Shown here: positions 2,062-33,038 of the stretch, in pieces | How positions within the stretch are numbered: position 1 is the first letter of the stretch | How the letters are laid out: each line of letters begins with the position of its first letter | Source of the DNA: a virus | Reading direction: 5' to 3' (one strand) | DNA: 64,000 nt | Virus record (IMG/VR): IMGVR_UViG_3300048694_001134 | Coordinates: 1-64,000 of that record | Translations under genes and position numbers: made by a program | The notes under the pieces: generated by a model | Told to the model about the DNA's origin: nothing | The model's input: only the letters and a program-made list of their open reading frames with translations | Database searches by the model: none

Positions 2062-2080
2062 AATAAACTCCTCAAATCAG

Positions 2081-3502: not shown

Positions 3503-3942
3503 CAGTATTTGATTCCTAGTTCGTGTTCTGTCATTATCATAAACTTCCATTTACGGTCGGCACAGAACTTTCTGGCCGCCTCCCATTTAGCACTATTTAC
3601 ACCCCATTTGTAAACTTCTTCTAAATATTGTTTGGTCGGTCTTTTTTTAACTACGGGCGGTCCTGTTTCCTTTGCAGGCTTTATTTCAATAACCACCGTT
3701 TCCTCAATGCCGGTTGTATTGATCTTCTTGACGAGGAAATCAGGGAAATAGCGATGAACTCGCCCATCAATCGGTGAACGGTATGGTATTGAAAACTCTT
3801 CACTGGACCATTGTTCAATATCTTTATGCGTGTCTAAATAAGACATAAAGCGAAGCTCCCACGAACTTCTGTAAACAATTTTCGTAGGATCACCTTTGTA
3901 TTTTGCAGGATTTCTAGGTTTGAAGAAGCCTTTATAACTCAT
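3502..3942 (-). CDS. gp4: Head completion nuclease gp4 (TnsA-like fold)
   Basis: YKG.FKPRNPAKYKGDPTKIVYRSSWE, HRYFPDF, IEIKP and NSAKWEAA motifs. Confidence 0.92.
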   Translation of the reverse strand: MSYKGFFKPRNPAKYKGDPTKIVYRSSWELRFMSYLDTHKDIEQWSSEEFSIPYRSPIDGRVHRYFPDFLVKKINTTGIEETVVIEIKPAKETGPPVVKKRPTKQYLEEVYKWGVNSAKWEAARKFCADRKWKFMIMTEHELGIKY

Positions 3943-3948
3943 AGGAAA

Positions 3949-3956
3949 TATTTATA
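3949..3956 (-). promoter_or_regulatory. T4-type late promoter TATAAATA facing gp4
   Basis: Plus-strand TATTTATA at 3949-3956 reads TATAAATA on the minus strand; a gp55 late sigma factor is encoded in the window. Confidence 0.6.
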
Positions 3957-4999: not shown

Positions 5000-5005
5000 A
5001 AAGAT

Positions 5006-7113: not shown

Positions 7114-7114
7114 T

Positions 7115-7894: not shown

Positions 7895-8323
7895 ATGGCA
7901 ATTGTTTTACAAAAGATAAATTCTTCACCACTAAAAACAACAACGGAAGTTTTTTCAGATTTCCTGATTGATTTTGACACTCATCCTGTTAAGCATGACC
8001 TTGTCCGTCACGTAAATGAAGAAGCTGTCAAACGTTCGATTAAAAATCTATTACTCACAAATAGAGGAGATCGATTGTTTAACAGCACGCTCGGTAGCGA
8101 TATACGTGCTTTGTTGTTTGAACAGATGTCTCCCGCAACGGAACAAATCCTCGAAGATCTTATTAAAACAACCGTAGAGAATTATGAGCCAAGAGCAAAG
8201 ATTGAACAAGTTCAAGTTGTTTCGGACATGGACACACAAACTATACAAGCAACGATTGCTTTCACGGTAATAAATAAGCAAGAACCTGTAATTCTCGAAC
8301 TTATTCTCAATAGGATCCGCTAA
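7895..8323 (+). CDS. gp25: Baseplate wedge subunit gp25
   Basis: AVKRSIKNLLLTNRGDRLFNSTLGSDIRALLFE...YEPRA. Confidence 0.92.
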   Translation: MAIVLQKINSSPLKTTTEVFSDFLIDFDTHPVKHDLVRHVNEEAVKRSIKNLLLTNRGDRLFNSTLGSDIRALLFEQMSPATEQILEDLIKTTVENYEPRAKIEQVQVVSDMDTQTIQATIAFTVINKQEPVILELILNRIR

Positions 8324-10110: not shown

Positions 10111-13058
10111 GAGAAGTCGAGAAGTTCATATCGCCATTCGTAGAGTCTCAGTTTCCGGAATTTTACCGCTCTGAGGGTCCGCGCTTTATAGATTTTGTAA
10201 AGCAGTATTATGTTTGGATGGAACAAACAAACAACGCGTTGGGCGCTTCTCGCAGCTTGTTTAATATACGTGATATTGATAAGACATCCGACGAATTTAT
10301 CAATCACTTTAAAGAGAAATACATTAAGGGTCTTCCTCTCGATACGGAAATAGATTCGCGAAAGTTTGTTCGTAATGCTGTTGGATTGTATCACGTTAAG
10401 GGAACGGAGCTTGGCGTACAGTTTGTTATCCAAGGTCTTTTTAATCAAGAAGCAAAAGTAAAATACCCAGGTCAGGATGTTTTCAAGCTATCGGACGGTC
10501 AGTGGGTTGTACCTCGTTACCTTGAACTTACAACTACGGAACGCACAAAGCAGTACGTTGGTAAAGAGATCATTGGCAACACGACCGGCGCAAAAGCATT
10601 CTGTGAAAGCGTAATTAGACGCCGTATAGGGACAAAGTACGTCGATGTTATCTACTTGAGTAACATAAGAGGTGACTTTGCGACGGGGGAAATAATTACA
10701 ACAACGGTTGACCGTGTGCTTGCCAATGCTCCTGTTGTAATTGGTTCTCTGACAAATCTAGTGGTCCGAACTGGCGGAGCCTTGTTCAAGGTTGGTGATT
10801 TGTTTAACATTACATCATCTAACGGTAAGCAAGGAGTAGCCCGAGTAACAAGTGTTTCCGATCAGACAGGTAAAGTCACATTTATTTTTAAAGATGCTTA
10901 CGAGAGTGGCGGATGGGGGTACTCAAACACTGCTAACGTCGTTATTTCATCAAAAGTACTCGAAGTTGCAAATGGTCAAAACGCAAACTCATTGATAACA
11001 ACTTTCCAACGGTTTGAGGTTATCAACCAGTCCTTGGCAAACATAGCTTATACAACAGCATCCCCAAACAATAACAATTTCACCGTTGGTACGGTGATAG
11101 AAAACTATGACGGCAACGGTGTTGTGATTGCTAACGCTGTGATTGTTGGTATTGGAACGACAAACACAACGGCTGGTTATTTGGTCGTAGCTCCTCGTAC
11201 AGGCAACGTTGCTTCTTACGACACTACATTTGCAACGAGTGGTAATGGGACAACAGCTGTTATTACAGCATATTATGATCGCTCAGTCACGGCAAATGTT
11301 GTTGGTTATAACACCACTCATGTAGGTGTCAATCAAATAGTTGGCGGTGCGTTTGTTCCAACGCCATACGCAAGAATAACAGGAAGAGAAAGTAACACCT
11401 CATTTGCTGTATCAAACGTTAGTACCGGCTATGGTGCAACATTCTCAATAGGCGAGTTGACAGACGTAGAGACGGTGTTTTTAACGCCAGACTTCATATC
11501 AAGTAACAATACACAAAAGGTACGTTACGCTGGATACCAGTCAAAATATATTACTGTAAACGCAAACACGGACATTTCCAATACAACAGGAAGAATAACA
11601 CAAAACAACCACGGCTTTGCAAACGGCGAGTACGTCCTTTATCAAGTTGCTACTGGTAACTCTGCCATTGGCGGTCTCACGAGTGGCGGCGGATATTACA
11701 TTGCGCAGGCGAATGGATCGACGTTTAGATTGTCTACGACGCAGGCTGGCACAACTACAATTAACCTCACCTCAGGAAACACTGAGACAGGTCATACGTT
11801 TAATAGTATATACAACACGTCAAATAATTCTGGTATCAATCTCAACGGCAACAACTCAGGCGCCGCGCTACAATATGGTGTGCCACAAGCTCTGAGTACA
11901 GGCGACACAGCATATGGAGGTTTTGGATTTCCAAAATACCCAAGCTCAAACTTAGATAGTATTCTATTTGATGTGCTACGTTTTGAATCAAAAACTATTG
12001 GCTCTATTGCATCGTTGATTGGTATTGACCCAGGCGCCGAATACAATATGGACCCGTTTGTTGCAATTATTGAGCCACAGGTATCTGCGTACAATCATCA
12101 TGATATTGTTTTGACAGTAGATTCCGCAACAGCAACGGGCCGCTTTATTGCAAAAGAGCAAATACAGCAAGCACTTGATAGTGTCGGCCGTCAGATAACC
12201 GTTGTTTCGTTTAGCGGCGTGACGGCAAACGGTACTGTTACGGACACGCCTTTTATTGGTGAGCGTGTTTATCAGAAGTATCCAAACAATGCAATTCGTG
12301 CTGACGGTATCGTCAGTGAAGGTTTGTTATCGGGCGGCGCAGGTTCGTTTAAATTAAAGACTTTCTCTGGTGTTTTTGTAAATACGTCAAATAACTCAAC
12401 GAAACTATACTCACAAACCTCCAATGCTACGGCAAACGTTACTGCGGTGAGCAATGTAACAATAACTTCCAACGCGCGCGGTATTGTACAGGATACATCA
12501 AATACAACCGTGCTTCACATTAAAAGAATAACGCTCGAAAACACTTTTGTCGAGGGAAAGACAATTGTTGGCCGCACGTCAGGTGCGACAGCAAACGTTA
12601 CAGTAGTTGATGAAAATAGAACAACCGAGGTTATCGGTTTGAATGCAAACGTATCCGCAAACGTTCAGACTGCACTTGGTGTCGTGACGGATTTGAGCGT
12701 GCAGGATTCAGGTTTTGGTTACGTTGACCAAGAACTTGTCACGCTGACAAGCGAGGACAGCATTTATCAAGTGACAGCTGTTGCATTGTTGGAGAAGCAA
12801 GGCGTAGGATCTGGTTACTATGCTTCGACTGGTAGTTTTCTCGATGCAGATAAAAAGTTGCACGACAATGATTACTATCAAGAATACAGTTACGAAGTTG
12901 AAACAAAGGTGCCTTTTGATATGTACGTTGACGTGTTGAAAACAATAACACACGTCGCCGGTACAAAGATATTTGGTGCTGTAGAAAGCATATCACAAGC
13001 CACAATGCCGATGAGTGTCATTGTTGGTGATACGATAAATAAGATAGAAATAAGCTAA
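10107..13058 (+). CDS. gp7: Baseplate wedge initiator gp7-like, with large insertions
   Basis: N-terminal SQFPEFY...FIDFVKQYY, Y..KGT; C-terminal DNDYYQEYSYEV...THVAGTKIFG; between gp6 and gp8. Confidence 0.7.
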   Translation: MREVEKFISPFVESQFPEFYRSEGPRFIDFVKQYYVWMEQTNNALGASRSLFNIRDIDKTSDEFINHFKEKYIKGLPLDTEIDSRKFVRNAVGLYHVKGTELGVQFVIQGLFNQEAKVKYPGQDVFKLSDGQWVVPRYLELTTTERTKQYVGKEIIGNTTGAKAFCESVIRRRIGTKYVDVIYLSNIRGDFATGEIITTTVDRVLANAPVVIGSLTNLVVRTGGALFKVGDLFNITSSNGKQGVARVTSVSDQTGKVTFIFKDAYESGGWGYSNTANVVISSKVLEVANGQNANSLITTFQRFEVINQSLANIAYTTASPNNNNFTVGTVIENYDGNGVVIANAVIVGIGTTNTTAGYLVVAPRTGNVASYDTTFATSGNGTTAVITAYYDRSVTANVVGYNTTHVGVNQIVGGAFVPTPYARITGRESNTSFAVSNVSTGYGATFSIGELTDVETVFLTPDFISSNNTQKVRYAGYQSKYITVNANTDISNTTGRITQNNHGFANGEYVLYQVATGNSAIGGLTSGGGYYIAQANGSTFRLSTTQAGTTTINLTSGNTETGHTFNSIYNTSNNSGINLNGNNSGAALQYGVPQALSTGDTAYGGFGFPKYPSSNLDSILFDVLRFESKTIGSIASLIGIDPGAEYNMDPFVAIIEPQVSAYNHHDIVLTVDSATATGRFIAKEQIQQALDSVGRQITVVSFSGVTANGTVTDTPFIGERVYQKYPNNAIRADGIVSEGLLSGGAGSFKLKTFSGVFVNTSNNSTKLYSQTSNATANVTAVSNVTITSNARGIVQDTSNTTVLHIKRITLENTFVEGKTIVGRTSGATANVTVVDENRTTEVIGLNANVSANVQTALGVVTDLSVQDSGFGYVDQELVTLTSEDSIYQVTAVALLEKQGVGSGYYASTGSFLDADKKLHDNDYYQEYSYEVETKVPFDMYVDVLKTITHVAGTKIFGAVESISQATMPMSVIVGDTINKIEIS

Positions 13059-13067
13059 TTTAAAAAT

Positions 13068-14825
13068 ATGACCCAGTTAATTACAAACTATTTCAGACTC
13101 CACAACGTAAAACAGTTCCGCGAGTCAATTAACGAAACAGCCAATAGCACGTACTATGTGTTTGCGGGTCAGCACGTGCCTTTTACCGGTGACGTTGTTC
13201 CGTCTATCACTAACAGCGTTGATAGTACTTTGTACCATGCTTATGATGAAATGATTTTTGGTAAGCGTGTAACCGTGAACGATGTTGCTGCTGTAGTGCC
13301 ACGTCACAACTGGACATCGGGCGAAGTGTATACACCATATAGAAGTGATTTGTCATTGGCGGATAAACCGTTTTACGTTTGTGTAAATGCAGCCTCAGAG
13401 TATCATATTTTTAAATGTCTTGATAATAACGGGGGAGCAAACTCGACAGCACAGCCTACCCGTTCTGAGACAAATCCCGACGATGAGTACTACAGTACCC
13501 AAGACGGATACGTGTGGAAGTATATGTACTCCGTAGACAGTACAACGTTTGCAAAGTTTGCAACACAAGATTTCATGCCTGTCGTGCCAAACGCAAACGT
13601 CGTAGGTAACGCGGTATCAGGTGCTATAGATGTGGTTACACTTAGCTACCGCGGATCTAACTACAATACCTATCTGACGGGAACATTTACATCGCCTGAT
13701 CTACGTGTTGGTGGTAACCCGCTGTACTATAACATAGCAAATACAGCTTCCGCTGCTGGTAACTTTTATAATGGAAGCTTTATGTATATTATATCCGGTA
13801 CGGGCCAAGGTCAAGGTCGCCGTATTGTAAACTATACAGTTTTGGGTAATTCGAAGACAGTAGAGATTGAGTCTGCGTTCAATATCAATCCTGATACAAC
13901 GTCGGTATATGAAATAACACCATATGTTATTGTAACAGGTGACGGAACAAACGCTGTTGCGCGCGCTCTTGTTAATACATCTGCAGCAAATAGCATCTCA
14001 CAGATAGAGATTATTAGTCGCGGCCGTGGTTACACTTATGCCTCTGCTATTGTTACTGGTAACACGGGTGGTGTGCAAAACGCAGCTGTGCTAAGTGTCG
14101 TGATGGGTCCAAAAGGCGGTCATGGATCTGATCCGGAATATGAGCTAGGAGCTTCATCACTTCTTCTAAGTGTAAAGTTTGAAAATAGTGAAGGTGCAAC
14201 AATACCTACGTACAATGGATACAGAACAATTGGTATTTTGAAAGACCCGTTATTTGCAAACGTCGAACTAACCTTTAACAGTCTGACAGGTGCCTTCAAT
14301 ATAGGAGAGACGGTCCAACAGGCAAACAGCTTGGCAACGGGCGTAGTCACTTCGTTTGATGGTCTGAATACGCTTGGGTTGACAAATGTGTATGGCACAT
14401 TCATAAGTAGCGCAGTGGTAACAGGCGCTAACTCATCTGCCACGTGTAATGTTGTATCTTACACAATAAACGGTCAGTCAAAATCGTTTACAACGTTTGA
14501 TCAGCGTCGACGTTATGCCTACACAATGCTGTCTGGTAGCCAGTTTACACAAAATGAGTATGTGTATCAGACAGATTCACAGCTAGCTAATGCAATTTTC
14601 CATGGCAGTACGTCAACAAATCTTTATTTGACGCACCTAAAAGGCACAATAAATACAGGGAATAGTATTATCGGCGTGACGAGTGGGGCTTCGGCAAACG
14701 TAACAACCTCATACCCACCCGATGTTGTTGTTGGTTCAGGTGAAGTGATTTATTTGGAGAACACAGACGCAATAACGCGCTCAAATACCCAATCAGAAAC
14801 AATCAAAATTATTTTGAGTTTTTAA
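13068..14825 (+). CDS. gp8: Baseplate wedge subunit gp8
   Basis: FYV.......IFKCLDNNGG, DGYVWKYMY, P.GGHGSDP..EL and SGEVIYLEN...I.R...QSETIKIIL.F. Confidence 0.85.
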   Translation: MTQLITNYFRLHNVKQFRESINETANSTYYVFAGQHVPFTGDVVPSITNSVDSTLYHAYDEMIFGKRVTVNDVAAVVPRHNWTSGEVYTPYRSDLSLADKPFYVCVNAASEYHIFKCLDNNGGANSTAQPTRSETNPDDEYYSTQDGYVWKYMYSVDSTTFAKFATQDFMPVVPNANVVGNAVSGAIDVVTLSYRGSNYNTYLTGTFTSPDLRVGGNPLYYNIANTASAAGNFYNGSFMYIISGTGQGQGRRIVNYTVLGNSKTVEIESAFNINPDTTSVYEITPYVIVTGDGTNAVARALVNTSAANSISQIEIISRGRGYTYASAIVTGNTGGVQNAAVLSVVMGPKGGHGSDPEYELGASSLLLSVKFENSEGATIPTYNGYRTIGILKDPLFANVELTFNSLTGAFNIGETVQQANSLATGVVTSFDGLNTLGLTNVYGTFISSAVVTGANSSATCNVVSYTINGQSKSFTTFDQRRRYAYTMLSGSQFTQNEYVYQTDSQLANAIFHGSTSTNLYLTHLKGTINTGNSIIGVTSGASANVTTSYPPDVVVGSGEVIYLENTDAITRSNTQSETIKIILSF

Positions 14826-22598: not shown

Positions 22599-22819
22599 CA
22601 GATAAGTTTTTAAAAACACAAGATAGCAGGTTTGTACGAGATCGTAGGTCTACGGCCATTCTAAATATAGACAAACAAGGGTACGCACACTACCTCAAAG
22701 AACGAGAAAAGCATTTGCAACTTTACAAGGCAGTTGATCAGGTTCAGAGCCTGCAGCAGGAGATGAGTGATATAAAACAGATGCTACAACAATTATTGAA
22801 CGGGAAGACAAATGGCTAA
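22595..22819 (+). CDS. Small conserved protein with a C-terminal coiled coil
   Basis: FVRD..S.AILN.D...Y..Y followed by a heptad repeat; translationally coupled on both sides. Confidence 0.65.
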   Translation: MTDKFLKTQDSRFVRDRRSTAILNIDKQGYAHYLKEREKHLQLYKAVDQVQSLQQEMSDIKQMLQQLLNGKTNG

Positions 22820-24686
22820 AGCAATAGCAAACGTTGTTATCGCATCAGATTCCTTTGCGACGTGGATTGGTATAACCAATCAGATGGCTGATACGTTTAC
22901 TAATCAAGCATTGACAGCAAACAGCGCCGCAGCGGGCGCTACCGTCACTGGCAACTCACAGTTGGTTGGTATTTTTGCAGCTAATACAATTGGTATAGGA
23001 ACAGCTCTCCGTGGTGGTAACGTTGCAACGTCAGCGAACCTTACCATTACATCTAACGCAAGCTTCACTGGCGCTAATCTACACAGCTCCGCAAACGTGT
23101 TTTTGAACGCGGCTAATGTTGATGTCAACACAACAATAACCACGCTGCGCGGTGGTAGTGTTACTGTTACGTCTAATGCATATACAAACGCAGCTAACGT
23201 TTTTGTTAATGCGGCAGCGATGACTATTCAAGGCGGACAAGCGACTGTCTCCTCAAACGTTGATATTAATAACGCAAACACGACTATCCGTGGCGGTCAA
23301 GCGTCAATTACGTCAAACACCTATATTCAGGCTGCTAACGTTTATGTGAACGCAGCTTCTACTATTGCCCTAGGTAACACAACCTTAAAAGGCAACACGT
23401 CTGTTAACAACATAGTTCTGACAGGTAACGCAACGTCGACAAACGTTGACTTGAATGTGTCCCAATTGACTATTAATGCTGTGTCTATTGCCACCGGTAA
23501 CACAACGTTGAAAGGCAACACGTCATCAAGTTCAGTCGTATTGACAGGCAACGCAACGTCAACAAATCTTGATGTCGCTGTCTCTCAGTTAACCGTGGGT
23601 GCAGTTTCTGTATTCACAGGTAATACAACAATCAAAGCAAATAGTACCGTAACAGTTGCAACAATTGTTGGCAATTCAACGGCAACAAACGTTGCTGTTA
23701 CCGCAACAGGTTTCAACATCAACGCAGTCACAATTGCAACGGGTAACACGACAATTAAAGCAAACAGTTCTCTCTCAAGCGTAGTGTTAACCGCTAATGC
23801 AACGGTGAGTAACTTGAATATTAGTGTTGATACACTATCCGTGACGGGTATTGTCTCTCTAGCAAATACACTCGGCGTTGCTGGTGCCGGCACTGTTAAC
23901 GGAGCCTTCACTGTTAACAATACAGCAGCTGTTGGCAATACATCAATTACCGGTTTTGCGAATGTTAGCACAACACTTAACGTCGTTGGTAACGCAACGG
24001 TCAATGGTGCGCTGACAGTCAATAATACAGCATCAGTTGGTAATACGACAATTACAGGATTTGCAAACGTCAGCTCGACATTGAACGTTACCGCAAACGC
24101 AACAGTTAACGGTGCGTTTTTAGTCAACAACGTAGCTGCTGCTGGTAATACTTCTATTACGGGGTTCATCAACGTTTCTTCAACAGCAAATATTGGTGGT
24201 GTGCTATCAGCGCGCGCTAACGTTGTTGCTAATGGCCAGTTGATTGTATCTAATGCAGTGTCGGTTGGTAACACAACAATTACAGGTTTCCTCAATGTTT
24301 CAAGTACAACAGCGTTAGGCGGTGATGTAACAATTCAGACGGAAATTGTACAAACCGTTGTTACTAATACAAACATTGGTAACGCCAATGCTGCCGGTTC
24401 ATTTACACCTGTTGAGATCTTTAGCTTCCCTATTGGTACGTATCATGGTGCAAAGATTCTTTCACGTACAACAACAAGAACTGGTGCCAATACACAAGTT
24501 CAAGAGCTTGTAATTGCGCAGAATGAGACAGACGTTACTCTTACATCCTATGCCGTTGTTGCTGCTCCTGAAGGTGCTAACGTTGGTGTGTATTCAGCAA
24601 CAATAAATAGCTCAGCTGTTTCAGTTAAATTCCAACAAACAAGCGCTAACACTAGTGCCAAGTTGTTTGTGCAGTACATAAAATAA
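22812..24686 (+). CDS. Fibre-like beta-repeat virion protein (Asn/Thr/Val/Ala-rich)
   Basis: Repeats GNTT(L/I)K(G/A)N and VGNT(S/T)ITGFANVS; C-terminal Y.GAK......Q.QEL.I...T.Y domain of the kind seen at T4-like fibre ends. Confidence 0.7.
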   Translation: MAKAIANVVIASDSFATWIGITNQMADTFTNQALTANSAAAGATVTGNSQLVGIFAANTIGIGTALRGGNVATSANLTITSNASFTGANLHSSANVFLNAANVDVNTTITTLRGGSVTVTSNAYTNAANVFVNAAAMTIQGGQATVSSNVDINNANTTIRGGQASITSNTYIQAANVYVNAASTIALGNTTLKGNTSVNNIVLTGNATSTNVDLNVSQLTINAVSIATGNTTLKGNTSSSSVVLTGNATSTNLDVAVSQLTVGAVSVFTGNTTIKANSTVTVATIVGNSTATNVAVTATGFNINAVTIATGNTTIKANSSLSSVVLTANATVSNLNISVDTLSVTGIVSLANTLGVAGAGTVNGAFTVNNTAAVGNTSITGFANVSTTLNVVGNATVNGALTVNNTASVGNTTITGFANVSSTLNVTANATVNGAFLVNNVAAAGNTSITGFINVSSTANIGGVLSARANVVANGQLIVSNAVSVGNTTITGFLNVSSTTALGGDVTIQTEIVQTVVTNTNIGNANAAGSFTPVEIFSFPIGTYHGAKILSRTTTRTGANTQVQELVIAQNETDVTLTSYAVVAAPEGANVGVYSATINSSAVSVKFQQTSANTSAKLFVQYIK

Positions 24687-24697: not shown

Positions 24698-25906
24698 ATG
24701 GCTGCTAGTAATACAAAATTCAAAGTCGATAACGGATTAGAGGTTGTTGGTACAGCCAACGTTAGCGGCAACTTCAGAGTTGAAGGTGACTTTGCGGTTG
24801 GGGGTAACCTCGCTTTTAGTGGTACGAGCTCGGCCGACTATAAACCTACGACTGACGATACGTATGCCCTAGGTAACACATCAACCCGCTGGATTGTATA
24901 TTCTTCAAAAGGGTTTTTTGGTAATGTAACGTCGACTGGTATTGCACAGCTTACAAACGCAACGGCAGATGTAATAATTCCAACGTCGAATGCTGCAGCA
25001 CAGTTTGGTTCTGCTACACGTCTATGGCAAGTGACAGCAAACACTGTTACAGCTGTAACAACAGCAGTATCTAATACGGAAAGTATTGTTGGAACATCGG
25101 CAACATTCAATGCCTTGTCTGGTGTTTCTTCAGCAATAGACTTTATTACAACTATTGCAGCACATGGATTTTCTAATGGCGAACTCGTTCAATACCTTGT
25201 AGCTGCTGGCAATACAGCTTTGAGTGGACTGACAAATGCGTCCTTCTATTATGTCATTTCTGCTAACACGACTGGCTTCCAGCTATCAACAACGTTCGGT
25301 GGGTCAAACGTAAACATAACAGCCGGCTCGACAAGCGAGACAGGCCACACGCTTGTCCCAGTGAGAATCGTACTTTCAAGCAACGGTTCCCTATTTGCAC
25401 CAGCCGGCGTTGCAAACGTGGGTACACTCCGTGTACTTAATAATGCTGTCGTTAATGGTACACTGACAATCGCTAATGCATCAAGTTTTTCTGGCAACGT
25501 CGCTGTGGCCGTAGATGCGTTGTTCGTTGATACGGTTAATAAAGTTGTTGGTATCAAGAACAATTCACCATCCTCAACGGATGCTGTCACGATAACAGGT
25601 AACGTCTTTTTCACTGCAGCAAACACTGGACTCAGACTGCGCAGTACAGCAAACACCTCACAAAACGCATCAATTGCGTTTATGACGAGTAATACATCCA
25701 ACAGTCGTCTAACGTTTACGACGTACGATAATTCAAACTCTTCTGTCAAGGATGGTGGCTTTGCATTCAACTTACAACAGAATGCTAGTTCGACTACGAC
25801 GGGATTGACGATTGACATGACAAACGTTCAATATAAGGGTGGTAATGTCGTGCACGCAGGAAACTTTGGCATTTATAATGTCAGCGGCACACGTGTAGGA
25901 CCATGA
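24698..25906 (+). CDS. Fibre / virion structural protein with an FCCH-like beta module
   Basis: FKVDNGL start, P..DDTY.LG....RW motif, AHGFSNGELVQY module. Confidence 0.65.
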   Translation: MAASNTKFKVDNGLEVVGTANVSGNFRVEGDFAVGGNLAFSGTSSADYKPTTDDTYALGNTSTRWIVYSSKGFFGNVTSTGIAQLTNATADVIIPTSNAAAQFGSATRLWQVTANTVTAVTTAVSNTESIVGTSATFNALSGVSSAIDFITTIAAHGFSNGELVQYLVAAGNTALSGLTNASFYYVISANTTGFQLSTTFGGSNVNITAGSTSETGHTLVPVRIVLSSNGSLFAPAGVANVGTLRVLNNAVVNGTLTIANASSFSGNVAVAVDALFVDTVNKVVGIKNNSPSSTDAVTITGNVFFTAANTGLRLRSTANTSQNASIAFMTSNTSNSRLTFTTYDNSNSSVKDGGFAFNLQQNASSTTTGLTIDMTNVQYKGGNVVHAGNFGIYNVSGTRVGP

Positions 25907-25907: not shown

Positions 25908-27797
25908 ATGGGAAGACCTCTTAGAGCGAAATATAGCGGTGCAGTCGCTATTGGGGTTCAGGAGATGTCGGATGCAGAGATTGCAGACATCATTCTTCCT
26001 AAGCTAGTCAACTATGCAGTAGCTAATCCGGACTCTGTTTATGGGTCAAAATTAAGAATCAATGGTGCTGGCGCCTATGATGTTAATCGTGGCACGTTCA
26101 CTGACTATCGCACGTCAAGTTATGGCGGCGCTCATCCAATTACGGTTGATCTTATCAACACGTACAACTTTACTCAGAATGAACGTGCACTAACTCCTTC
26201 CCTCTCAGCACGTCCTGTTCATTATATCCAAAACGGTAATGAACAGCAAGTTGTTGAGATGTCTAATTCAGACATTTACGATTACCTTCTTCCTACCATT
26301 ATCGATACAATGGCGTATCGTTACTGGCTCCTTGACAACATCTATACGCCATCAGGATTGTCATTTCCAGGTACATGGGTTAGTGTTGGAACTTTTGCAG
26401 ATACGTATTGGTCCTCAACGTCATTGATAACAGTCAACTACACGCTATGGCAACGAACAGATACGTTGTCAGTGGGCACGACATACAGACCTCTCAAACA
26501 AACAATTGTGAGTGGTGAATCTCGGCTCGTAGAAATGACGGATCTTGAGATAGAATCAATGTATGTGTGCATTGGCGAATCAATTCGTACAAAGGGGATA
26601 GGTCAATACTCATTTAGTACATCTGCGCCTGGTACTGGTACATGGACATCGGTAGGATCGGCTATTGACCGTTTGAATATAAATTACGATGTAAACTACA
26701 CAGGATCGTATGCAGGCACTTACGTTGGTAGTTACACGGGGATCTACGCTGGTACGTATCAAAGCACGTTTACCGGCCAATATGGTAACACCTTTACTGC
26801 GCTGTACACTGGTATCTACAACCTACTGACACCGTTCACTGGCGGATATGCAGGAACGTATCAGCAAGCATTTACAGGAGCATTCTCTGGATCGTACACC
26901 GGCGCGTTCAGTGGTTTGTACAATTCTTCATTCAGCGCTGCGTATCAAGGTACATACACGGGTGGATATGCAAACAGCTACACGGGCGCATACAGTGGTA
27001 ACTACATTATATACTTTACGGGAATATATGCAGGCACATACACTGGTCTGTTTAACCGTACAAGTTACACGGGCGCTTACACAAGCGTGTATAGACGCAC
27101 ATTTGGTGGTCGAGAAGAAAACTGGTATGCGTCAAGCTACGCTGGAGCGTATAACAGCTTTGCCCTGACATATATTGGTTATTTCACTGGTTCATTCAGA
27201 CGTACATATGGTAGTAATGAGCAGGGTTATTATTCACAAGCGTTTGTTGGAGCATACGGTCCAGGCGGCACTGTCAGCTATATCGGTTATTATGTTGGCT
27301 CGTTTAGACGCACATATGGTAGCAGTGAGCAAGGTTATTATTCGCAAGCGTTTGTTGGAACATACCGCGGTGTATCGAAATCTTGGACAGGTAATTATGC
27401 AGGTGGGTACACGACAGGATACTACACGGGCGTCTATAGTCAGGCTTGGACAGCTGTTTGGTCCGGAGCATATACACGAGTAGTTAATCAAACATTCACC
27501 TCTACGTACAGCGGCGCGTATAGTAAAGCATTCGTAGGATCTTACGCTCAATCATTTACCGGTGCTTTCACCGGGATATATACAGGAGCATATTCTTCAT
27601 TAGTACCATACACGGGAGCTTATAACAGAGTCTACAGTGGCGGGTTCACAGGCGCTTATACAAGTGCATACTCGGGAGCATACACGGGCGTATATACGCG
27701 GGCGTGGACCGGAACGTATACAGGAGTTTACACAGGCCTCACTGCACAAAACACGCTGCAGACAATGACAAAGAGCTTGTACGTTCGTACAGCTTAA
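25908..27797 (+). CDS. Tyr/Gly tetrapeptide-repeat virion protein, short paralogue
   Basis: 629 aa ORF; N-terminal repeated RP..../EMSD/GTW/LWQR modules, then about 350 aa of [YFW]-x-G-x repeats. Confidence 0.8.
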   Translation: MGRPLRAKYSGAVAIGVQEMSDAEIADIILPKLVNYAVANPDSVYGSKLRINGAGAYDVNRGTFTDYRTSSYGGAHPITVDLINTYNFTQNERALTPSLSARPVHYIQNGNEQQVVEMSNSDIYDYLLPTIIDTMAYRYWLLDNIYTPSGLSFPGTWVSVGTFADTYWSSTSLITVNYTLWQRTDTLSVGTTYRPLKQTIVSGESRLVEMTDLEIESMYVCIGESIRTKGIGQYSFSTSAPGTGTWTSVGSAIDRLNINYDVNYTGSYAGTYVGSYTGIYAGTYQSTFTGQYGNTFTALYTGIYNLLTPFTGGYAGTYQQAFTGAFSGSYTGAFSGLYNSSFSAAYQGTYTGGYANSYTGAYSGNYIIYFTGIYAGTYTGLFNRTSYTGAYTSVYRRTFGGREENWYASSYAGAYNSFALTYIGYFTGSFRRTYGSNEQGYYSQAFVGAYGPGGTVSYIGYYVGSFRRTYGSSEQGYYSQAFVGTYRGVSKSWTGNYAGGYTTGYYTGVYSQAWTAVWSGAYTRVVNQTFTSTYSGAYSKAFVGSYAQSFTGAFTGIYTGAYSSLVPYTGAYNRVYSGGFTGAYTSAYSGAYTGVYTRAWTGTYTGVYTGLTAQNTLQTMTKSLYVRTA

Positions 27798-27812: not shown

Positions 27813-30800
27813 ATGGCCATAACATCACTTAAGTACAATACAGCGTTAAAGGGATTACAGGCAATGTCCAATACGGACGTTGCTAGTTACCTTTCGCCTG
27901 TTATTGGAGCATACTTTGCTTCAAACACAAGTGTTGGTTCTCTTGCTGTTGGTTCAATGGCTAATGGTACATCGATCGGTACATGGGTCGATACTTACCG
28001 GACAGACTCGCTCGGTACGCACCCCGTCAATGCTGGTGCTATTACCACAAACAGCACAACGCTCTATCAAGATCTTTCCAACTCCTCTTTAAATGAAACG
28101 ACAGTACGACCTCTTGGGTGGAGTACGAGTAATAACTATTTCAAAGAGTTTACTGATACGGATATAAAAGACAATCTTTGTAATGCAGTTTTACAGGGCA
28201 TGCTTCTTTCCGGCGCAGGCGCATACGTGCTTCAGCCAACGGCTCCTGCTACTGGTACATGGGCGTCTCGAGGAACGTTAACAAATACGTTAACTACAGG
28301 AACAACAAACACAACAACGCTTTGGCAGCGCACAGATAGTACCGCTTCAACGGTTACAAGACCTATCAAGTTTGCGGCTGGCGTGCGCGAGATGACTGAT
28401 GATGATATCAGAACATTAACGCATAAAGTTCGTAACTACATTGTCACAAACGGTATTGGACAATATCAGTTATCAGCAACAACGCCTGTAACACCAGGAA
28501 CATGGGTTCAAGCAGGTAGCGGTTTTGATGATACGCGTTATCAAACTCAAGACCAAGCATATGCTGGCACGTACCAACAAGCATTCACCGGCGCCTACAC
28601 AGCAGCGTACACGGGAGCCTATGGTGGGAACTTTACCGGCGTTTACAATCAAACTTTCTCCGGAACTTACCAACAGGCATTTAGCGCAGCATACACTGGC
28701 CTGTACACAGGTGTTTATAGCCAAGCGTTCACAGGAAGCTACACTAACACGTTCACGGGCGCTTTTACTGGTGCTTATGTAGGTACGTTCTCCGGAGCAT
28801 ACACAGGTGCTTATTCACGTGTGTTCACTGGCTCATATACAGGCGCATACACTGGTATATACAGCCAAACGTTTACAGGGTCATACACAGGCAGTTACAA
28901 TCAAACATTTACTGGCGCTTACACTGGTATCTACAACCAGACGTTTACTGGTACCTATGCTGGTAATTATCAGCAGACATTTACTGGCGCATACACAGGT
29001 AATTATAACCAAACGTTCACGGGCACGTACAGTGGCGGGTACATTGGATATTTTACTGGCTCTTACGCTGGCACATATTCAAGCGTGTTCAGTGGTTCAT
29101 ATACCGGTGCTTACACGGGCGTATACAATCAGACGTTCACCGGAGCGTATGCTGGCAGTTACATAGGATACTTTACTGGTTCTTACGCGGGTACATATTC
29201 GCGCGTGTTTAGTGGTTCATATACTGGTACCTATACCGGTGTCTACAATCAAACGTTCACAGGTGCGTACGCTGGTGGATACGTTGGCTACTTTACTGGC
29301 TCTTACGCCGGCACATACTCACGTGTGTTTAGCGGTTCATATACTGGATTGTATTCTGGCGGATATACTGGTTACTTCACGGGCAACTACACGGGGTATT
29401 ATACTGGTTACTTTACAGGTAATTACACGGGTGCTTATTCACGTGTGTTTACTGGAGCGTACGCTGGTGCATATACGGGATATTATACTGGGTACTTCAC
29501 CGGGTACTATGCAGGATCATATACCCGCGTGTGGACGGGATCGTATGCTGGTACGTACGGTCAAACATGGACGGGTGTGTATGCTGGCGCTTATGCGCGA
29601 TCGTGGACGGGCACATATACGGGCTACTTCACGGGCAATTACACTGGTTACTACGCAGGAGCGTACACGGGGTACTACACTGGTTATTTTACTGGATACT
29701 ATACAGGGTATTATGCACGTGTAAGCTACACAGGATATTATACTCGAGTATTCAGTCGCACGTATGGCGGCAACGTTGCGGGTGGTGGCTGGTTTGCAGG
29801 TAGTTTTGTTGGTACTTATAACGTCAACGCAGTCTCTTATGTTGGGTATTATACTCGAGTATTCAGTCGCACGTATGGCGGCAACGTTGCGGGTGGTGGC
29901 TGGTTTGCAGGTAGTTTTGTTGGTGCCTATAATGCAACCGGGGCAGTCTACATGGGCTACTATGTTGGCTCGTTCAGTCGCACGTATGGCGGCAACACTG
30001 CGGGCTGGTATTCATCTAGCTACCTTGGTGGTTATCAAAACGTGGCTAAAGCGTTTGCAGGTAGTTACGCAAGTTCATTTGCCGGTGCGTATACAGGCGC
30101 GTACGCAGGAACGTATGCGGGCGCCTATGCACAAAGCTTTGCAGGAACGTATACTTCATACTTTACAGGTAACTATACTGGTTCGTATTCTCAATACTGG
30201 ACGGGAACTTATGCTGGAAATTACTCAGCGACTTGGACAGGAACATACGCCGGCGTATATGCAAATACATTTGTAGGGTATTACACTGGCGTGTACGCAG
30301 GTAATTACACGGGAACGTTCTCAGGTATATACGCTGGTGCTTATGCGCAAGCGTTCGCTGGTTTGTATGCTGGCACATATGCACAGGTGTTCACAGGAAC
30401 ATATGCTGGCGCATATGTTGGTAACTACACTGGTAGCTTCACTGGCGCGTACGCTGGTGCGTACGCTCAAACGTTTACAGGTATCTATAGCGGTGGTTAT
30501 GTGGGTGCATTCACAGGCCAATACAGCGGCGCCTATATTGGTAACTATACAGGTAGCTTCACCGGCGCATATGCAGGAGCTTATGCACAATCATTCACTG
30601 GGTCATACAGCGGCGGTTATGTTGGCTCGTTTACCGGACAGTACAGCGGCGCCTATATTGGCAACTATACCGGTAGCTTTACTGGCGCGTATGCCGGCGC
30701 GTATGCGCAGACATTCACCGGACTGTATAGTGGTGGCTACGTTGGTACGTTTACTGGTCAGTATAGTGGTGGTTATGTCGGCACATTCTCCGGACTCTAT

Positions 30801-31265
30801 AGCGGCGGCTACGTTGGCTCCTTCACTGGTCAGTATAGTGGTGGTTATGTTGGCACGTTTAGTGGCGCCTATGTGGGAAATTACTCACAATCCTACACCG
30901 GTATATACGCTGGTGCGTATGTTGGTAATTACACAGGAACGTTTACAGGAAGCTTTGTTGGCAACTACCAAAGTACATTTACCGGTATTTACTCCAACAC
31001 ATTTTCCGCAGCATATGTTGGGTCTTATGTTGGCTCGTTCACCGGACAGTACTCAGGCTCATATGGTAATGCATGGACAGGAGCGTTTACAGGCTTGTAC
31101 ACGGGTCAGTTCACAGGAATTTACACGGGACTATATACCGGGGTATATTCAACAGCATATTCAGGCGCTTATGTTGGGTCGTTCACCGGTTCGTATACAG
31201 GGTTGACTATCATTTCAAGTCCTGAGACAATATCAACGATAAAACTTTGGGTAAGGATAGCATGA
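27813..31265 (+). CDS. Tyr/Gly tetrapeptide-repeat virion protein, long paralogue
   Basis: 1150 aa ORF with the same N-terminal modules as the previous gene and about 880 aa of [YFW]-x-G-x repeats. Confidence 0.8.
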   Translation: MAITSLKYNTALKGLQAMSNTDVASYLSPVIGAYFASNTSVGSLAVGSMANGTSIGTWVDTYRTDSLGTHPVNAGAITTNSTTLYQDLSNSSLNETTVRPLGWSTSNNYFKEFTDTDIKDNLCNAVLQGMLLSGAGAYVLQPTAPATGTWASRGTLTNTLTTGTTNTTTLWQRTDSTASTVTRPIKFAAGVREMTDDDIRTLTHKVRNYIVTNGIGQYQLSATTPVTPGTWVQAGSGFDDTRYQTQDQAYAGTYQQAFTGAYTAAYTGAYGGNFTGVYNQTFSGTYQQAFSAAYTGLYTGVYSQAFTGSYTNTFTGAFTGAYVGTFSGAYTGAYSRVFTGSYTGAYTGIYSQTFTGSYTGSYNQTFTGAYTGIYNQTFTGTYAGNYQQTFTGAYTGNYNQTFTGTYSGGYIGYFTGSYAGTYSSVFSGSYTGAYTGVYNQTFTGAYAGSYIGYFTGSYAGTYSRVFSGSYTGTYTGVYNQTFTGAYAGGYVGYFTGSYAGTYSRVFSGSYTGLYSGGYTGYFTGNYTGYYTGYFTGNYTGAYSRVFTGAYAGAYTGYYTGYFTGYYAGSYTRVWTGSYAGTYGQTWTGVYAGAYARSWTGTYTGYFTGNYTGYYAGAYTGYYTGYFTGYYTGYYARVSYTGYYTRVFSRTYGGNVAGGGWFAGSFVGTYNVNAVSYVGYYTRVFSRTYGGNVAGGGWFAGSFVGAYNATGAVYMGYYVGSFSRTYGGNTAGWYSSSYLGGYQNVAKAFAGSYASSFAGAYTGAYAGTYAGAYAQSFAGTYTSYFTGNYTGSYSQYWTGTYAGNYSATWTGTYAGVYANTFVGYYTGVYAGNYTGTFSGIYAGAYAQAFAGLYAGTYAQVFTGTYAGAYVGNYTGSFTGAYAGAYAQTFTGIYSGGYVGAFTGQYSGAYIGNYTGSFTGAYAGAYAQSFTGSYSGGYVGSFTGQYSGAYIGNYTGSFTGAYAGAYAQTFTGLYSGGYVGTFTGQYSGGYVGTFSGLYSGGYVGSFTGQYSGGYVGTFSGAYVGNYSQSYTGIYAGAYVGNYTGTFTGSFVGNYQSTFTGIYSNTFSAAYVGSYVGSFTGQYSGSYGNAWTGAFTGLYTGQFTGIYTGLYTGVYSTAYSGAYVGSFTGSYTGLTIISSPETISTIKLWVRIA
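29736..29924 (+). repeat. Two identical 78-bp direct repeats with a 111-bp (37-codon) period, plus a partial third copy near 29970-29996
   Basis: TATTATACTCGAGTATTCAGTCGCACG...GTAGTTTTGTTGGT at 29736-29813 and 29847-29924. Confidence 0.9.
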
Positions 31266-31714
31266 AGAGAACCATAAAAAACCCGCATTGGGTCAATAAT
31301 GCAAGAACAGTAATGTCGGCTGAGTTTCACTACGATGATGGAAGAGTGATTACGGCGGTTATCAATTCTAACGAAACAAACAATCCCGACTATCAAGAGA
31401 TACGTGCAACGTTCTCTGAAGCAGAGCTGGAACAGAATACACAAAACAATATTCGTAAAATCCAGGGCGACAGGGATCGTCAAAAGGCGCAGGAAGAAGC
31501 TCAAAAGGAACGTGAGCGTCAGGAGCGGTTGTTCCAGGTTAAACTTGCTGCCTTTGAAGTTGATGCTATTAAGAATACCACAAATAAAGCTTTGAAGTCA
31601 GCACTCCGCCGTTCGAAAAGCGATTTTGAAGTATATGCAATGGCAGCAGCAATTATCCTTGACTCGGTACAAAATCCTCCCGCTCAAACTGACGAGCCGT
31701 CAGAGGAACAATAA
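31262..31714 (+). CDS. Hypothetical protein, possible fibre assembly chaperone
   Basis: ATGA overlap with the long repeat gene; P.W.N....(x)EF N-terminus and a charged helical C-half. Confidence 0.55.
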   Translation: MKRTIKNPHWVNNARTVMSAEFHYDDGRVITAVINSNETNNPDYQEIRATFSEAELEQNTQNNIRKIQGDRDRQKAQEEAQKERERQERLFQVKLAAFEVDAIKNTTNKALKSALRRSKSDFEVYAMAAAIILDSVQNPPAQTDEPSEEQ

Positions 31715-32433
31715 TGACTGATCTTCGTAATGGTTTTTTGATCGTAGCCTCAAAGGATCCCGGCTACGTGATTGGTGCAAATTTTCTCGCTGCAAGTATA
31801 AAGGATTTCTATCCTGAAGCACATATTACCATGTTTGTCACTCCCGATTTACGAACCCGGGTTGATGATAGCGTGTTTGATTTAGTCGTTAGTGAGGATG
31901 TCCCTTCACACATAAGAACGAAGCTGTACGCTCTATCACAAACGCCTTACACGGAACTAACTTGTTACGTTGATGCTGACATGGAATGCATGCATGAAGA
32001 TGTACGCAACATTTGGAATGAAATGCCAAACGATTGCGATATTTTGATTACAAAAATTAGACCATATAATGGAAAAGAAGATAAGTGGCCTGGTGGCACC
32101 ACAATCCCCAAGGGTCGCATGACTTACCACGGCGGCTTCTTTCTCTACCGTTCAAACGAACAAACAAAATACTTCATGGAAAGGTGGTGGCAAGATTACG
32201 TCAAGCAGCGCGCCGAGCCATGGCCATACAATGAGGATGAAATACCAAAATCATTTGCTCAATGGGATCAATTTACTTTTTGGAAGTTGATGAACGAGGA
32301 CAATCTCCCAATCAACGTTCAGGTATTCAATGACGACGCTAGGTGGAATTTTGTCAATGGGTACTATCTGACCGAGACGCAACAGCCGATCGTTTTTTAT
32401 CATCACACACTACCGCATAGAGTTGGCCAATGA
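31714..32433 (+). CDS. GT-A fold glycosyltransferase (GT8-like)
   Basis: TKLYALSQTPY..TCYVDAD (DxD), HGGFFLY, WDQFTFW, RWN and late FYHH. Confidence 0.8.
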   Translation: MTDLRNGFLIVASKDPGYVIGANFLAASIKDFYPEAHITMFVTPDLRTRVDDSVFDLVVSEDVPSHIRTKLYALSQTPYTELTCYVDADMECMHEDVRNIWNEMPNDCDILITKIRPYNGKEDKWPGGTTIPKGRMTYHGGFFLYRSNEQTKYFMERWWQDYVKQRAEPWPYNEDEIPKSFAQWDQFTFWKLMNEDNLPINVQVFNDDARWNFVNGYYLTETQQPIVFYHHTLPHRVGQ

Positions 32434-33038
32434 AAACTATTGAAATAAACAACAAAGACCTAAAAGTAATCCTTGACAAGTTTCTACAACAGCTATTATT
32501 GCAAGATCGATCAAACTATCCCTACGGCCGTTCAGATATAACTCCGGAGTATGCATGTGGTAATGAATACTTGCATCACATGCAAAATAAACCGGTTGAT
32601 GGCTTTCCGGAAAAAACGTATGGTGTTGATCTCTCACGTCATATCCCACCCAACTTGAAAGAAGCATTGAAGACGCTAGATCAAGAGTTGCTTGCTTGGT
32701 CGGGATCGAGGAACAACGCTGTCAAGATGTTGTATCCTAAAGGTGGGTACATGGGATGGCATCACAACGCCAATGCGGCTGGCTACAACATCCTTCTTTC
32801 ATGGTCAAAGGATGGAAAGGGATATTTTAGATACCAAGATCCGCTGACGAAAGAAATCGTAACAATGCAAGATACGCCGGGATGGACTTGTAAAGTTGGA
32901 TACTACGGTCCTTGGAATGAACCTGATAGAATTTATTGGCATTGTGCAAACGCAGAAAACGAAGAAAGATTGACGCTGGGTTATATTATTCCTCATGAGG
33001 GAATGTGGGAAGACATGATAGACGATATTCAGAGCTGA
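32430..33038 (+). CDS. 2OG-Fe(II) oxygenase / cupin-like protein
   Basis: YPKGGYMGWHHN ... YWHCA ... RLTLG gives a double-stranded beta-helix pattern (HxN...H...R). Confidence 0.6.
   Translation: MKTIEINNKDLKVILDKFLQQLLLQDRSNYPYGRSDITPEYACGNEYLHHMQNKPVDGFPEKTYGVDLSRHIPPNLKEALKTLDQELLAWSGSRNNAVKMLYPKGGYMGWHHNANAAGYNILLSWSKDGKGYFRYQDPLTKEIVTMQDTPGWTCKVGYYGPWNEPDRIYWHCANAENEERLTLGYIIPHEGMWEDMIDDIQS

What the first reader, a model, noticed from the sequence alone, without database searches (positions are those of the whole stretch)
27813..31265. Mirror-symmetric Tyr/Gly repeat protein: a candidate giant beta-hairpin fibre
Seen (manual counts): aromatic-x-Gly-x tetrapeptides run in register from aa 250 to 633 (384 aa, 96 units). 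A ~114-aa centre follows, then a second arm from aa 748 to 1131 (384 aa, 96 units). Both arms contain 40-aa higher-order duplications (YIGYFTGSYAGTYSRVFSGS...YNQTFTGA in the first; YTGSFTGAYAGAYAQTFTG...YSGAYIGN in the second), so the arms appear to have expanded together. The whole array is inserted in one loop of a repeated module: compare GTWASRGTLTNT-LTTG-TTNTTTLWQR with GTWVQAGSGFDDT-[~890 aa]-TISTIKLWVR. Inference: the chain runs out and back as one antiparallel hairpin, roughly 130 nm if fully extended at ~3.4 A per residue, with both ends in the base domain. This is unlike the triple-beta-helix, collagen or coiled-coil fibres I know.
Basis: partly seen in the sequence, partly recalled or inferred. 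Interest (0 to 1): 0.88.

Follow-up and report, generated by a model that had tools for sequence, protein, structure and literature searches.

The report
Fold-back Tyr/Gly hairpin phage fibre
A T4-like phage gene encodes a protein whose chain appears to run out about 385 residues and back again as two strictly matched aromatic-x-Gly-x repeat arms rooted in one small base domain, a fibre design with no described counterpart that recurs in hundreds of unannotated phage proteins.

Summary
ORF 27813-31265 (1150 aa) has an aromatic residue at every fourth position from aa 250-634 (97 units) and aa 748-1128 (96 units), around a 110-aa centre of three ~37-aa units.

The array sits inside the third hairpin of a three-module base. 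AlphaFold2 models that base, including the closing C-terminal strand, at pLDDT >90.

The out-and-back reading is strongly supported:
- **Mirrored aromatics:** F/Y/W identity mirrors at i+j=1382 in 89 of 96 units; the next-best shift gives 73%.
- **Matched expansions:** 120-nt and 36-nt tandem expansions lie at mirrored positions on both arms.
- **Paralogue:** the upstream paralogue has two Pro-containing 2-residue bulges exactly opposite each other.
- **Close relatives:** four have arms of 116/115, 123/123, 128/126 and 164/163 units, with the same mirror rule.
- **Wider family:** the rule holds in about 100 more distant members, and equal arms flank distal domains of 13 to about 1000 aa.

No Pfam, PHROG or literature match exists. 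The base resembles MABP-type beta-prisms (Z 5.8-7.3).

The backbone conformation, oligomeric state and virion location remain unproven. AlphaFold2 gives only the first ~25-30 residues of each arm as a beta-hairpin.

Other first-stage notes on this same genome reported the same symmetry.

The parts
27813..31265 (+). Whole gene, 1150-aa fold-back repeat protein (P0001)
   Evidence: ORF list and translation. 338 base-domain homologues in 1.8 billion representatives.
27846..28082 (+). Base module A (aa 12-90): helix, GTW58, hairpin, TLYQ86
   Evidence: Module alignment A4. AlphaFold2 pLDDT >90.
28131..28340 (+). Base module B (aa 107-176): helix, GTW150, short hairpin LTTG, TLWQR173
28377..28559 (+). 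Base module C, N-terminal part (aa 189-249): helix, GTW231, outgoing strand
   Evidence: Strand E238-247 pairs with E1131-1148 in the model.
28560..29723 (+). Arm 1 (aa 250-637): 97 aromatic-x-Gly-x units, outgoing
   Evidence: No D, E, K, H, P, C or M; 7 Arg.
29724..30053 (+). Centre or tip (aa 638-747): three ~37-aa Y/G/R-rich units
   Evidence: TRF period 111 nt, 2.4 copies, at 29739-30009.
30054..31205 (+). Arm 2 (aa 748-1131): 96 aromatic-x-Gly-x units, returning
   Evidence: Mirrors arm 1 at i+j=1382. No charged residue at all.
31203..31262 (+). Closing strand of module C (aa 1131-1150, ...TISTIKLWVRIA)
   Evidence: pLDDT 96-98. L1145, W1146 and R1148 are conserved in at least 90% of 113 aligned sequences.
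29010..29347 (+). Arm 1 tandem array, period 120 nt x 2.8 copies (aa 400-512)
   Evidence: Its mirror partner is aa 870-982.
30408..30763 (+). Arm 2 tandem array, period 120 nt x 3.0 copies (aa 866-984), exactly opposite the arm 1 array
25908..27797 (+). Upstream paralogue (629 aa): same base, ~120-aa arms, three-unit centre, mirrored Pro bulges
   Evidence: At i+j=872, NLLTP 305-309 lies opposite SSLVP 563-567.
31247..31714 (+). Conserved downstream 155-aa charged protein, a candidate assembly factor
   Evidence: 59% identical next to the L012 homologue. 30% identical (E 6e-18) next to the Phage C48C1 homologue.
31714..33038 (+). Two conserved downstream genes: a GT-like protein (239 aa) and a hydroxylase-like protein (202 aa)
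   Evidence: 33% and 31% identical to C48C1 CDS0203 and CDS0204. Weak Pfam glycosyltransferase hits. ESM Atlas lead to Asp/Asn beta-hydroxylase / 2OG oxygenase.

Best explanation
The protein is a structural fibre of a T4-like myovirus.

**Base.** The base is a single chain of three tandem ~80-aa modules. Each has a helix and a GTW...LWxR beta-hairpin, and together they pack into a pseudo-threefold, beta-prism-like knob. This knob is the conserved part of the family and is inferred to be the virion anchor.

**Stalk.** The hairpin of the third module is extended enormously. The chain leaves the base as ~96 aromatic-x-Gly-x units, forms a small three-unit tip, and returns as ~96 more units. The returning arm lies antiparallel to the outgoing arm and in register with it along the whole length, then closes the base with its last strand. 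This pairing is shown.

**Faces of the stalk.** The register is shown: residue i faces residue 1382-i. The rest is inferred:
- aromatic faces aromatic of the same kind, and Gly faces Gly or one larger residue, which gives one aromatic/glycine face;
- the other face is small and polar, made of Thr, Ser and Ala.

**Conformation.** The most likely conformation is a long twisted two-stranded beta-ribbon, possibly bundled with other copies. Fully extended, it would reach ~125-130 nm.

**Evolution.** The stalk lengthens by tandem duplication in one arm, matched by an equal duplication opposite it in the other arm.

**Function.** Other family members carry tips from a tight turn to ~1000 aa, so the stalk acts as a spacer that presents a variable distal element to the host surface.
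For: **Topology**
- AlphaFold2 gives aa 1-249 and 1131-1148 pLDDT >90, with the closing strand paired to 238-247.
- The 387-aa homologue P0021 has mean pLDDT 83 and long strands 240-264 and 353-385 projecting as a hairpin.
- The three modules align with each other.
- The C-terminal LWxR motif is nearly invariant.

**Arm pairing within this protein**
- Aromatic type is identical at i+j=1382 in 89 of 96 units. The next-best mirror shift gives 73%, and the best direct shift 82% on 71 units.
- Mutual information is 0.67 bit at that shift and at most 0.19 elsewhere.
- W574-W808 and W586-W796 are paired.
- Over the five long proteins, pairs with a non-Gly residue on both sides at the Gly sites number 11 against 32 expected. 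This is the lowest of 21 shifts.
- The 120-nt arrays at aa 400-512 and 866-984 are exact mirror partners. The 36-nt arrays at aa 342-408 and 968-1016 are approximate ones.

**Arm pairing in relatives**
- In the paralogue, two 2-residue Pro bulges lie exactly opposite each other.
- Four IMG/VR relatives have arms of 116/115, 123/123, 128/126 and 164/163 units. Their mirror identity is 83-96% at the same register.
- With an a priori register, that shift is the best of 21 in 19 of 45 homologues and in 27 of 53 further ones; about 2 would be expected by chance.
- Arm lengths correlate (r 0.78, median difference 8 aa) over 30-250 aa, around centres of 13 to about 1000 aa.

**Virion role**
- The gene lies between baseplate wedge, VrlC-like and fibre genes on one side and terminase, sheath, portal and capsid genes on the other.

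**Base fold**
- The only VIA matches with Z above 3.8 are MABP-type beta-prisms: 8b6v Z 7.3, 2qp2 Z 7.2, 3tow Z 6.2, 6sb1 Z 5.8.
Against: - AlphaFold2 gives the arms of P0001 pLDDT ~30 and draws part of arm 2 (aa 894-1116) like a solenoid. There is therefore no confident model of the stalk.
- No free two-stranded beta-ribbon of anything like this length has been described (my own knowledge).
- The amphipathic ribbon suggests oligomerisation, whose form is unknown.
- Z scores of 5.8-7.3 for the base are below the level at which a fold match is safe.
- No proteomic or EM evidence places the protein in virions.
- Mirror identity is weak in the paralogue (14 of 25) and in some long, complex homologues.
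- Some homologues show unequal arms by my crude segmentation. These cases look like segmentation artefacts.
Confidence: 0.62

Rival explanations
1. The two arms are paired as above, but the hairpin is wound into a compact higher-order structure. This could be a two-start antiparallel beta-solenoid or a tightly supercoiled ribbon. The object would then be a short thick rod of tens of nm or less, not a ~130 nm thread.
For: - The F/Y pattern has higher-order periods: 3,3,4 units (40 aa) here, and 12, 28 or 40 aa in relatives. This could reflect stacked ladders.
- AlphaFold2's low-confidence drawing of aa 894-1116 resembles beta-helices, with VIA Z ~6 to tailspikes and pectate lyase.
Against: - That model region has pLDDT 30-57.
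- The higher-order period differs between close relatives, and is absent in the basal ~50 units of L010 and ~25 units of P0001. The mirror rule still holds there.
- Mirror identity has a single sharp peak, with no strong second peak one coil away.
- A uniform 4-residue repeat offers no distinct corner positions.
Confidence: 0.17
2. The stalk is a homotrimeric six-stranded needle like the T4 gp37 tip. Three fold-back hairpins would pack their aromatic/glycine faces around a common axis.
For: - Phage fibres are usually trimers.
- T4 gp37's needle is likewise inserted in its collar domain (residues 811-881 and 1010-1026). It uses Gly packed against Phe of a neighbouring chain (PMC6957217).
- One face of the ribbon is entirely aromatic and Gly, and F-F pairs recur about every 13 residues.
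- BFVD gives weak hits to a T4 protein 37 fragment and to tail-collar proteins.
Against: - The base already holds three modules in one chain, that is, a single-chain pseudo-trimer. This argues against a need for trimerisation.
- There is no His and so no HxH metal sites in the arms.
- There is no sequence similarity to gp37.
- The BFVD hits have probability of at most 0.12.
Confidence: 0.15
3. The arms are not a defined structure. They would be a low-complexity, uncharged Tyr/Gly/Thr-rich region that is disordered or forms independent local-contact repeats, and the symmetry would be a by-product of repeat expansion.
For: - The composition resembles sticky low-complexity regions, with no D, E, K, H, P, C or M in 772 residues.
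- AlphaFold2 confidence is low.
- The only Pfam hit is a summed Gly-zipper match.
Against: - No DNA mechanism makes a mirror-image protein pattern.
- The register is unbroken for up to 164 units.
- Arm lengths are equal in every close relative.
- Bulges are matched, and aromatic type co-varies at one register family-wide.
Confidence: 0.04

Closest known systems
T4 gp37 distal tip (collar D10 + needle D11)
   Same: It is a fibre protein of a T4-type phage. The chain leaves a small basal domain, runs to a tip and returns, so the basal domain is made of two separated segments (811-881 and 1010-1026; PMC6957217). Gly packs against aromatic residues in the stem.
   Different: The gp37 needle is a homotrimer of about 130 residues per chain, held by seven iron ions on His motifs. 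Here each arm is ~385 residues (up to ~650 in L012) of a strict 4-residue aromatic-x-Gly-x repeat, with no His. The base is three modules in one chain. No sequence similarity was found.
MABP-type beta-prism domains (MVB12B MABP 3tow; Plu-MACPF 2qp2; Mpf2Ba1 8b6v; perforin-2/MPEG1 P2 domain 6sb1)
   Same: These are the only structural matches of the base that stand out (Z 5.8-7.3, 115-123 residues aligned). [quoted passage not shown] That is the same design principle at small scale.
   Different: There is no sequence relationship and no Pfam hit. Z is below 8. Each module here also has a helix. The MPEG1 hairpin is tens of residues long, not hundreds, and is not a periodic repeat. Those proteins are not viral fibres.
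Streptococcal antigen I/II fold-back stalk (own knowledge, not checked here)
   Same: Two equal-length arms flank a distal domain and pair antiparallel into a long thin stalk.
   Different: There the arms are an alpha-helix wound with a polyproline-II helix, of different sequence types. Here both arms are the same beta-type repeat.
4-residue (V/L)TGN/D repeats in cyanophage structural proteins (S-RIM2 W2130910_095)
   Same: A hydrophobic-T-G-x tetrapeptide repeat in a virion protein of a T4-like phage. It was the only other phage hit to the arms.
   Different: It is a single ~125-aa run, aliphatic rather than aromatic. It has no second arm, no mirror partner and no beta-prism base.

Membership tests
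T4 gp37-type fold-back needle | Chain leaves and re-enters one basal domain (out-and-back topology) | tested here: met
   The closing strand 1131-1148 pairs with 238-247 at pLDDT >90. The same is seen in P0021. The C-terminal LWxR motif is conserved.
T4 gp37-type fold-back needle | His-x-His metal sites along the stem | tested here: not met
   There is no His in aa 250-1131.
T4 gp37-type fold-back needle | Sequence homology to gp37, or to the collar of gp10, gp11 or gp12 | tested here: not met
   No Pfam hit in 59 members. No PDB sequence hit with the family or module profile. The only structural hint is VIA Z 2.4 over 45 residues to gp11.
T4 gp37-type fold-back needle | Homotrimer with six interwoven strands | not testable with these tools
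   No tool here measures the oligomeric state.
MABP-type beta-prism | Three-sheet pseudo-threefold prism fold | tested here: inconclusive
   Three homologous modules are present. VIA Z is 7.3, 7.2, 6.2 and 5.8 to four MABP-type prisms, with nothing unrelated above 2.4. However, Z is below 8 and Foldseek found nothing.
MABP-type beta-prism | Sequence membership in the Pfam family | tested here: not met
   No Pfam family was found at E up to 1 in 59 members, apart from compositional Gly-zipper hits.
Parallel beta-solenoid repeat proteins | Constant coil length with only local (i to i+coil) contacts | tested here: not met
   The higher-order period varies (12, 28, 40 aa) or is absent, while a long-range i+j = constant relation holds over the whole array.
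Gly-zipper_YMGG (PF13441) | A single ~45-aa glycine-zipper segment of small outer-membrane lipoproteins | tested here: inconclusive
   The whole-protein score is 59.7 bits (cut-off 28.9), but no single stretch passes on its own. The score is a sum over a GxxxG-like repeat, and only 4 of 59 family members hit it weakly.

The most novel reading that the evidence does not exclude
The stalk is a free-standing, single-chain, two-stranded antiparallel beta-ribbon more than 100 nm long (over 200 nm in the L012 relative). It would be held together only by an aromatic/glycine zipper. That would make it a new class of fibrous protein fold, whose length evolves by paired duplications in the two arms.
Probability: 0.4. 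Interest if true: 0.92.

Novelty: new variant of a known kind. Interest (0 to 1): 0.82.

Why it matters
**For structural biology.** If the arms are what the sequence says, this is a fibre built on a principle different from the coiled coils, collagen, triple beta-helices and beta-spirals known in viral fibres. It is one chain folded back on itself for hundreds of residues and zipped by like-with-like aromatic pairs over glycine.

**For protein evolution.** The family gives a natural series from 13 to 164 units per arm with the same base. That is an unusually clean system for studying how a protein changes length while keeping two distant segments in register.

**For protein design.** It suggests a simple, uncharged, programmable-length rod or ribbon motif.

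**For phage biology.** It defines a large family that is entirely unannotated: at least 338 clusters at 50% identity and at least 629 at 90%. The family sits in the host-recognition modules of environmental T4-like phages. It has a conserved trio of neighbouring genes that may fold or modify it.

Tried and rejected
- **Complex prediction**, three copies of the 316-aa member P0004 with alignment A2. Score 0.00, verdict 'no answer'. This says nothing either way about oligomerisation.
Genomic contexts of most homologues could not be read.
- **The search for homologous proteins**, aa 1-249 in the 632-2013 aa length band, found nothing. The exhaustive representative search and the profile search found the family.
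The single base domain worked.
- **Pfam and PHROGs** on P0001 gave only a summed Gly-zipper hit. Pfam found nothing in nine long homologues or in 59 short ones.
- **Foldseek against PDB** with both models gave nothing at E <= 0.001. BFVD gave only weak fibre-flavoured hits.
- **PDB sequence searches** with the family profile and the module profile gave nothing significant.
- **Literature searches** for such a repeat or ribbon in phages found nothing relevant.
- **'Largest gap' arm segmentation** was too crude for complex homologues. I replaced it with arms contiguous from the base.
- **Alpha-helical glycine-zipper hairpin:** rejected. The composition is Thr/Gly/Tyr-rich, the arms continue from a beta-hairpin, and short members have GG tight turns.
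- **Polyproline/polyglycine-II bundle:** rejected, because the period is 4, not 3.
- **DNA inverted duplication as the source of the mirror pattern:** rejected, because the reverse complement does not encode a reversed peptide.
Full report
**What is there**

The window is part of a 75.7-kb IMG/VR virus record. It is a T4-like myovirus. Baseplate wedge, VrlC-like, sheath, portal, terminase and major head genes are all present. The major head protein is 70% identical to that of Stenotrophomonas phage DLP6.

ORF 27813-31265 encodes 1150 aa.
- An aromatic residue occupies every fourth position from aa 250 to 634 (97 units) and from aa 748 to 1128 (96 units), without one break.
- Position 3 of the unit is Gly in 74 and 79 units. 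Position 2 is mostly Thr, Ser or Ala.
- The 772 arm residues contain no Asp, Glu, Lys, His, Pro, Cys or Met, and only seven Arg, all in arm 1.
- The 110-aa centre is three ~37-aa units.

**Topology**

The N-terminal 249 residues are three homologous ~80-aa modules. Each has a helix, GxGxYxL..P..GTW, a hairpin, and T.LW/YxR.

In module 3 the hairpin is replaced by the whole array, and the protein ends with ...TISTIKLWVRIA. AlphaFold2, run with a 113-sequence family alignment, gives pLDDT >90 for aa 1-249 and 96-98 for the closing strand 1131-1148. That strand pairs with strand 238-247.

In the 387-aa homologue P0021 (mean pLDDT 83), strands 240-264 and 353-385 project from the base as a long hairpin. 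Confidence falls below 50 further out. So the two ends of the array meet at the base. The stalk itself has no confident model.

**Are the arms coupled?**

Six independent lines say yes.

1. Aromatic type. The kind of aromatic residue (F, Y or W) in arm 1 unit k equals that in the arm 2 unit at i+j=1382 in 89 of 96 units.
   - The next-best of 81 mirror shifts gives 73%, and the best direct shift gives 82% on 71 units.
   - Composition alone predicts 55%, so P is about 2e-16.
   - Mutual information is 0.67 bit at this shift and at most 0.19 elsewhere.
   - The non-periodic features W574/W586 and W808/W796, and the strings around them, mirror each other.
2. Glycine sites. Summed over the five long proteins, both partners are non-Gly 11 times against 32 expected. 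This is the lowest of 21 shifts.
3. DNA repeats. Tandem Repeats Finder gives a period-120 array in arm 1 (aa 400-512) and one in arm 2 (aa 866-984, mirror image aa 398-516). It also gives period-36 arrays at aa 342-408 and 968-1016. Expansions of equal period and similar copy number therefore lie opposite each other.
4. The paralogue. The upstream gene 25908-27797 (629 aa, base 37% identical) has ~120-aa arms. Each arm has one 6-residue step containing Pro, and at i+j=872 NLLTP 305-309 lies exactly opposite SSLVP 563-567. Other first-stage notes on this genome had seen this too.
5. Close relatives. Four IMG/VR relatives, with base 55-81% identical, have arms of 116/115, 123/123, 128/126 and 164/163 units.
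   - Their mirror identity is 83, 92, 96 and 90% at the same register.
   - Their F/Y patterns differ from each other and are partly aperiodic, so this is covariation and not inheritance of one pattern.
6. The wider family. With the register fixed beforehand from the GTW and LWxR anchors, like-with-like pairing is best at that shift in 19 of 45 homologues and in 27 of 53 further ones. About 2 would be expected.
   - Arm lengths correlate (r 0.78, median difference 8 aa) over 30-250 aa.
   - The centre varies from 13 to about 1000 aa, for example 227/224 around 634 aa, 109/105 around 475 aa and 101/101 around 105 aa.

A mirror-image peptide pattern cannot arise from any DNA rearrangement, so it must be maintained by selection on contacts between the arms.

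**What the stalk probably is**

The array continues a beta-hairpin. Short members close it with a YYGG(R) tight turn. The composition is typical of beta structure, not of helix. The period of 4 puts the aromatic and Gly residues on one face and the small polar residues on the other.

The simplest structure is a twisted two-stranded antiparallel ribbon with aromatic pairs lying over Gly pairs. At 3.3-3.4 A per residue this is 127-131 nm here and ~215 nm in L012. This step is inference.

Both partners at one height are Phe, or both are Tyr. That suggests the environment changes with height, as it would where ribbons touch each other or something else about every 13 residues. The oligomeric state is open.

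AlphaFold2 drew part of arm 2 as a solenoid at pLDDT 30-57. A wound-up hairpin therefore remains a rival, but the variable or absent higher-order period argues against it.

**Base fold and relatives**

VIA-align against 48,161 PDB representatives gave only 11 chains with Z >= 2. The top four are all MABP-type beta-prisms: 8b6v Z 7.3, 2qp2 Z 7.2, 3tow Z 6.2 and 6sb1 Z 5.8. The fifth, MPEG-1 (6u23, Z 3.8), is the same protein as 6sb1, and the next, unrelated row is Z 2.4. Foldseek found nothing.

[quoted passage not shown] T4 gp37 has the same out-and-back topology through its collar domain (PMC6957217).

Neither is a sequence relative. There are hints of a link to gp11, gp10 and gp37 collar modules, but they are too weak to use.

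**Family and context**

- The base domain has 338 hits among 1.8 billion 50%-identity representatives, 250-1650 aa long.
- It has at least 629 90%-identity clusters of 152-727 aa, all 'hypothetical' and almost all viral or metagenomic.
- The only deposited phage genome with it is Phage C48C1 (Kyanoviridae), as a 3347-aa protein.
- In the window, in L012 and in C48C1 the gene is followed by a conserved ~155-aa charged protein. In the window and in C48C1, homologues of a GT-like and a hydroxylase-like protein follow that; L012 has ORFs of matching size and order there, which I did not compare.
- These are candidate assembly or modification factors.
- The position among fibre and baseplate genes, the conserved base and the hypervariable tip fit a virion fibre whose base anchors it and whose tip meets the host. 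This is inferred, not shown.

**Verdict**

The precise backbone structure, length, oligomeric state and virion location need experiments. I found no description of this family or design.

Noticed in passing
window 31247-33038; L007 (OQ984149) 12150-14030; L012 13094-14880: Three genes directly after the fibre gene are conserved beside the distant C48C1 homologue (30%, 33% and 31% identity). They encode a ~155-aa charged protein, a GT-like protein and a ~200-aa protein. In L012 only the first was compared (59% identity); ORFs of matching size follow it. The last looks like an Asp/Asn beta-hydroxylase / 2OG oxygenase, on an ESM Atlas lead only. They may fold or modify the fibre.
   Followed up: partly
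L007 (Phage C48C1, OQ984149.1) 2012-12055: A 3347-aa member of the family. It has the same base and a TLYVRVA end, but several separate arrays in different registers. One long run has an aromatic residue in two of every three units. It may contain nested or multiple hairpins.
   Followed up: partly
L014 (Synechococcus phage S-RIM2 KX349281) 1393-7131, aa ~1540-1665: A 1912-aa annotated structural protein carries a ~125-aa run of (V/L)TG(N/D) tetrapeptide repeats. This is an aliphatic, single-arm cousin of the aromatic-x-Gly-x unit.
   Followed up: no
window 22812-24686 and 24698-25906: Two further fibre-like ORFs (624 and 402 aa) lie just upstream. They are rich in Asn, Thr, Ala and Val, with ~30-aa repeats (…GNTTLKGNT…, …VGNTSITGF.NVS…). 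Neither has a Pfam family.
   Followed up: no
window 28560-31205: The two arms together (772 aa) contain no Asp, Glu, Lys, His, Pro, Cys or Met. Arm 2 has no charged residue at all, and arm 1 has seven Arg, all at the Gly position of the unit.
   Followed up: yes
window 29724-30053; L008, L009, L010, L012 centres: The tip differs between close relatives. P0001, the paralogue and L008 have three ~36-37-aa units. L009, L010 and L012 have different 90-125-aa Tyr/Gly-rich centres. The three-unit tips echo the three-module base and might form a small prism.
   Followed up: partly
window 28131-28340 (module B) and model m6421d6d22fb8 residues 129-173: There is a weak, recurring structural resemblance of one base module to T4 gp11 (1el6_A): VIA Z 2.4, 45 residues, 29% identity. 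Foldseek ranks it 3-4 with both models. BFVD hits include a T4 protein 37 fragment, Gp10_C and tail-collar proteins. This could hint that the base is a single-chain version of the trimeric collar.
   Followed up: partly
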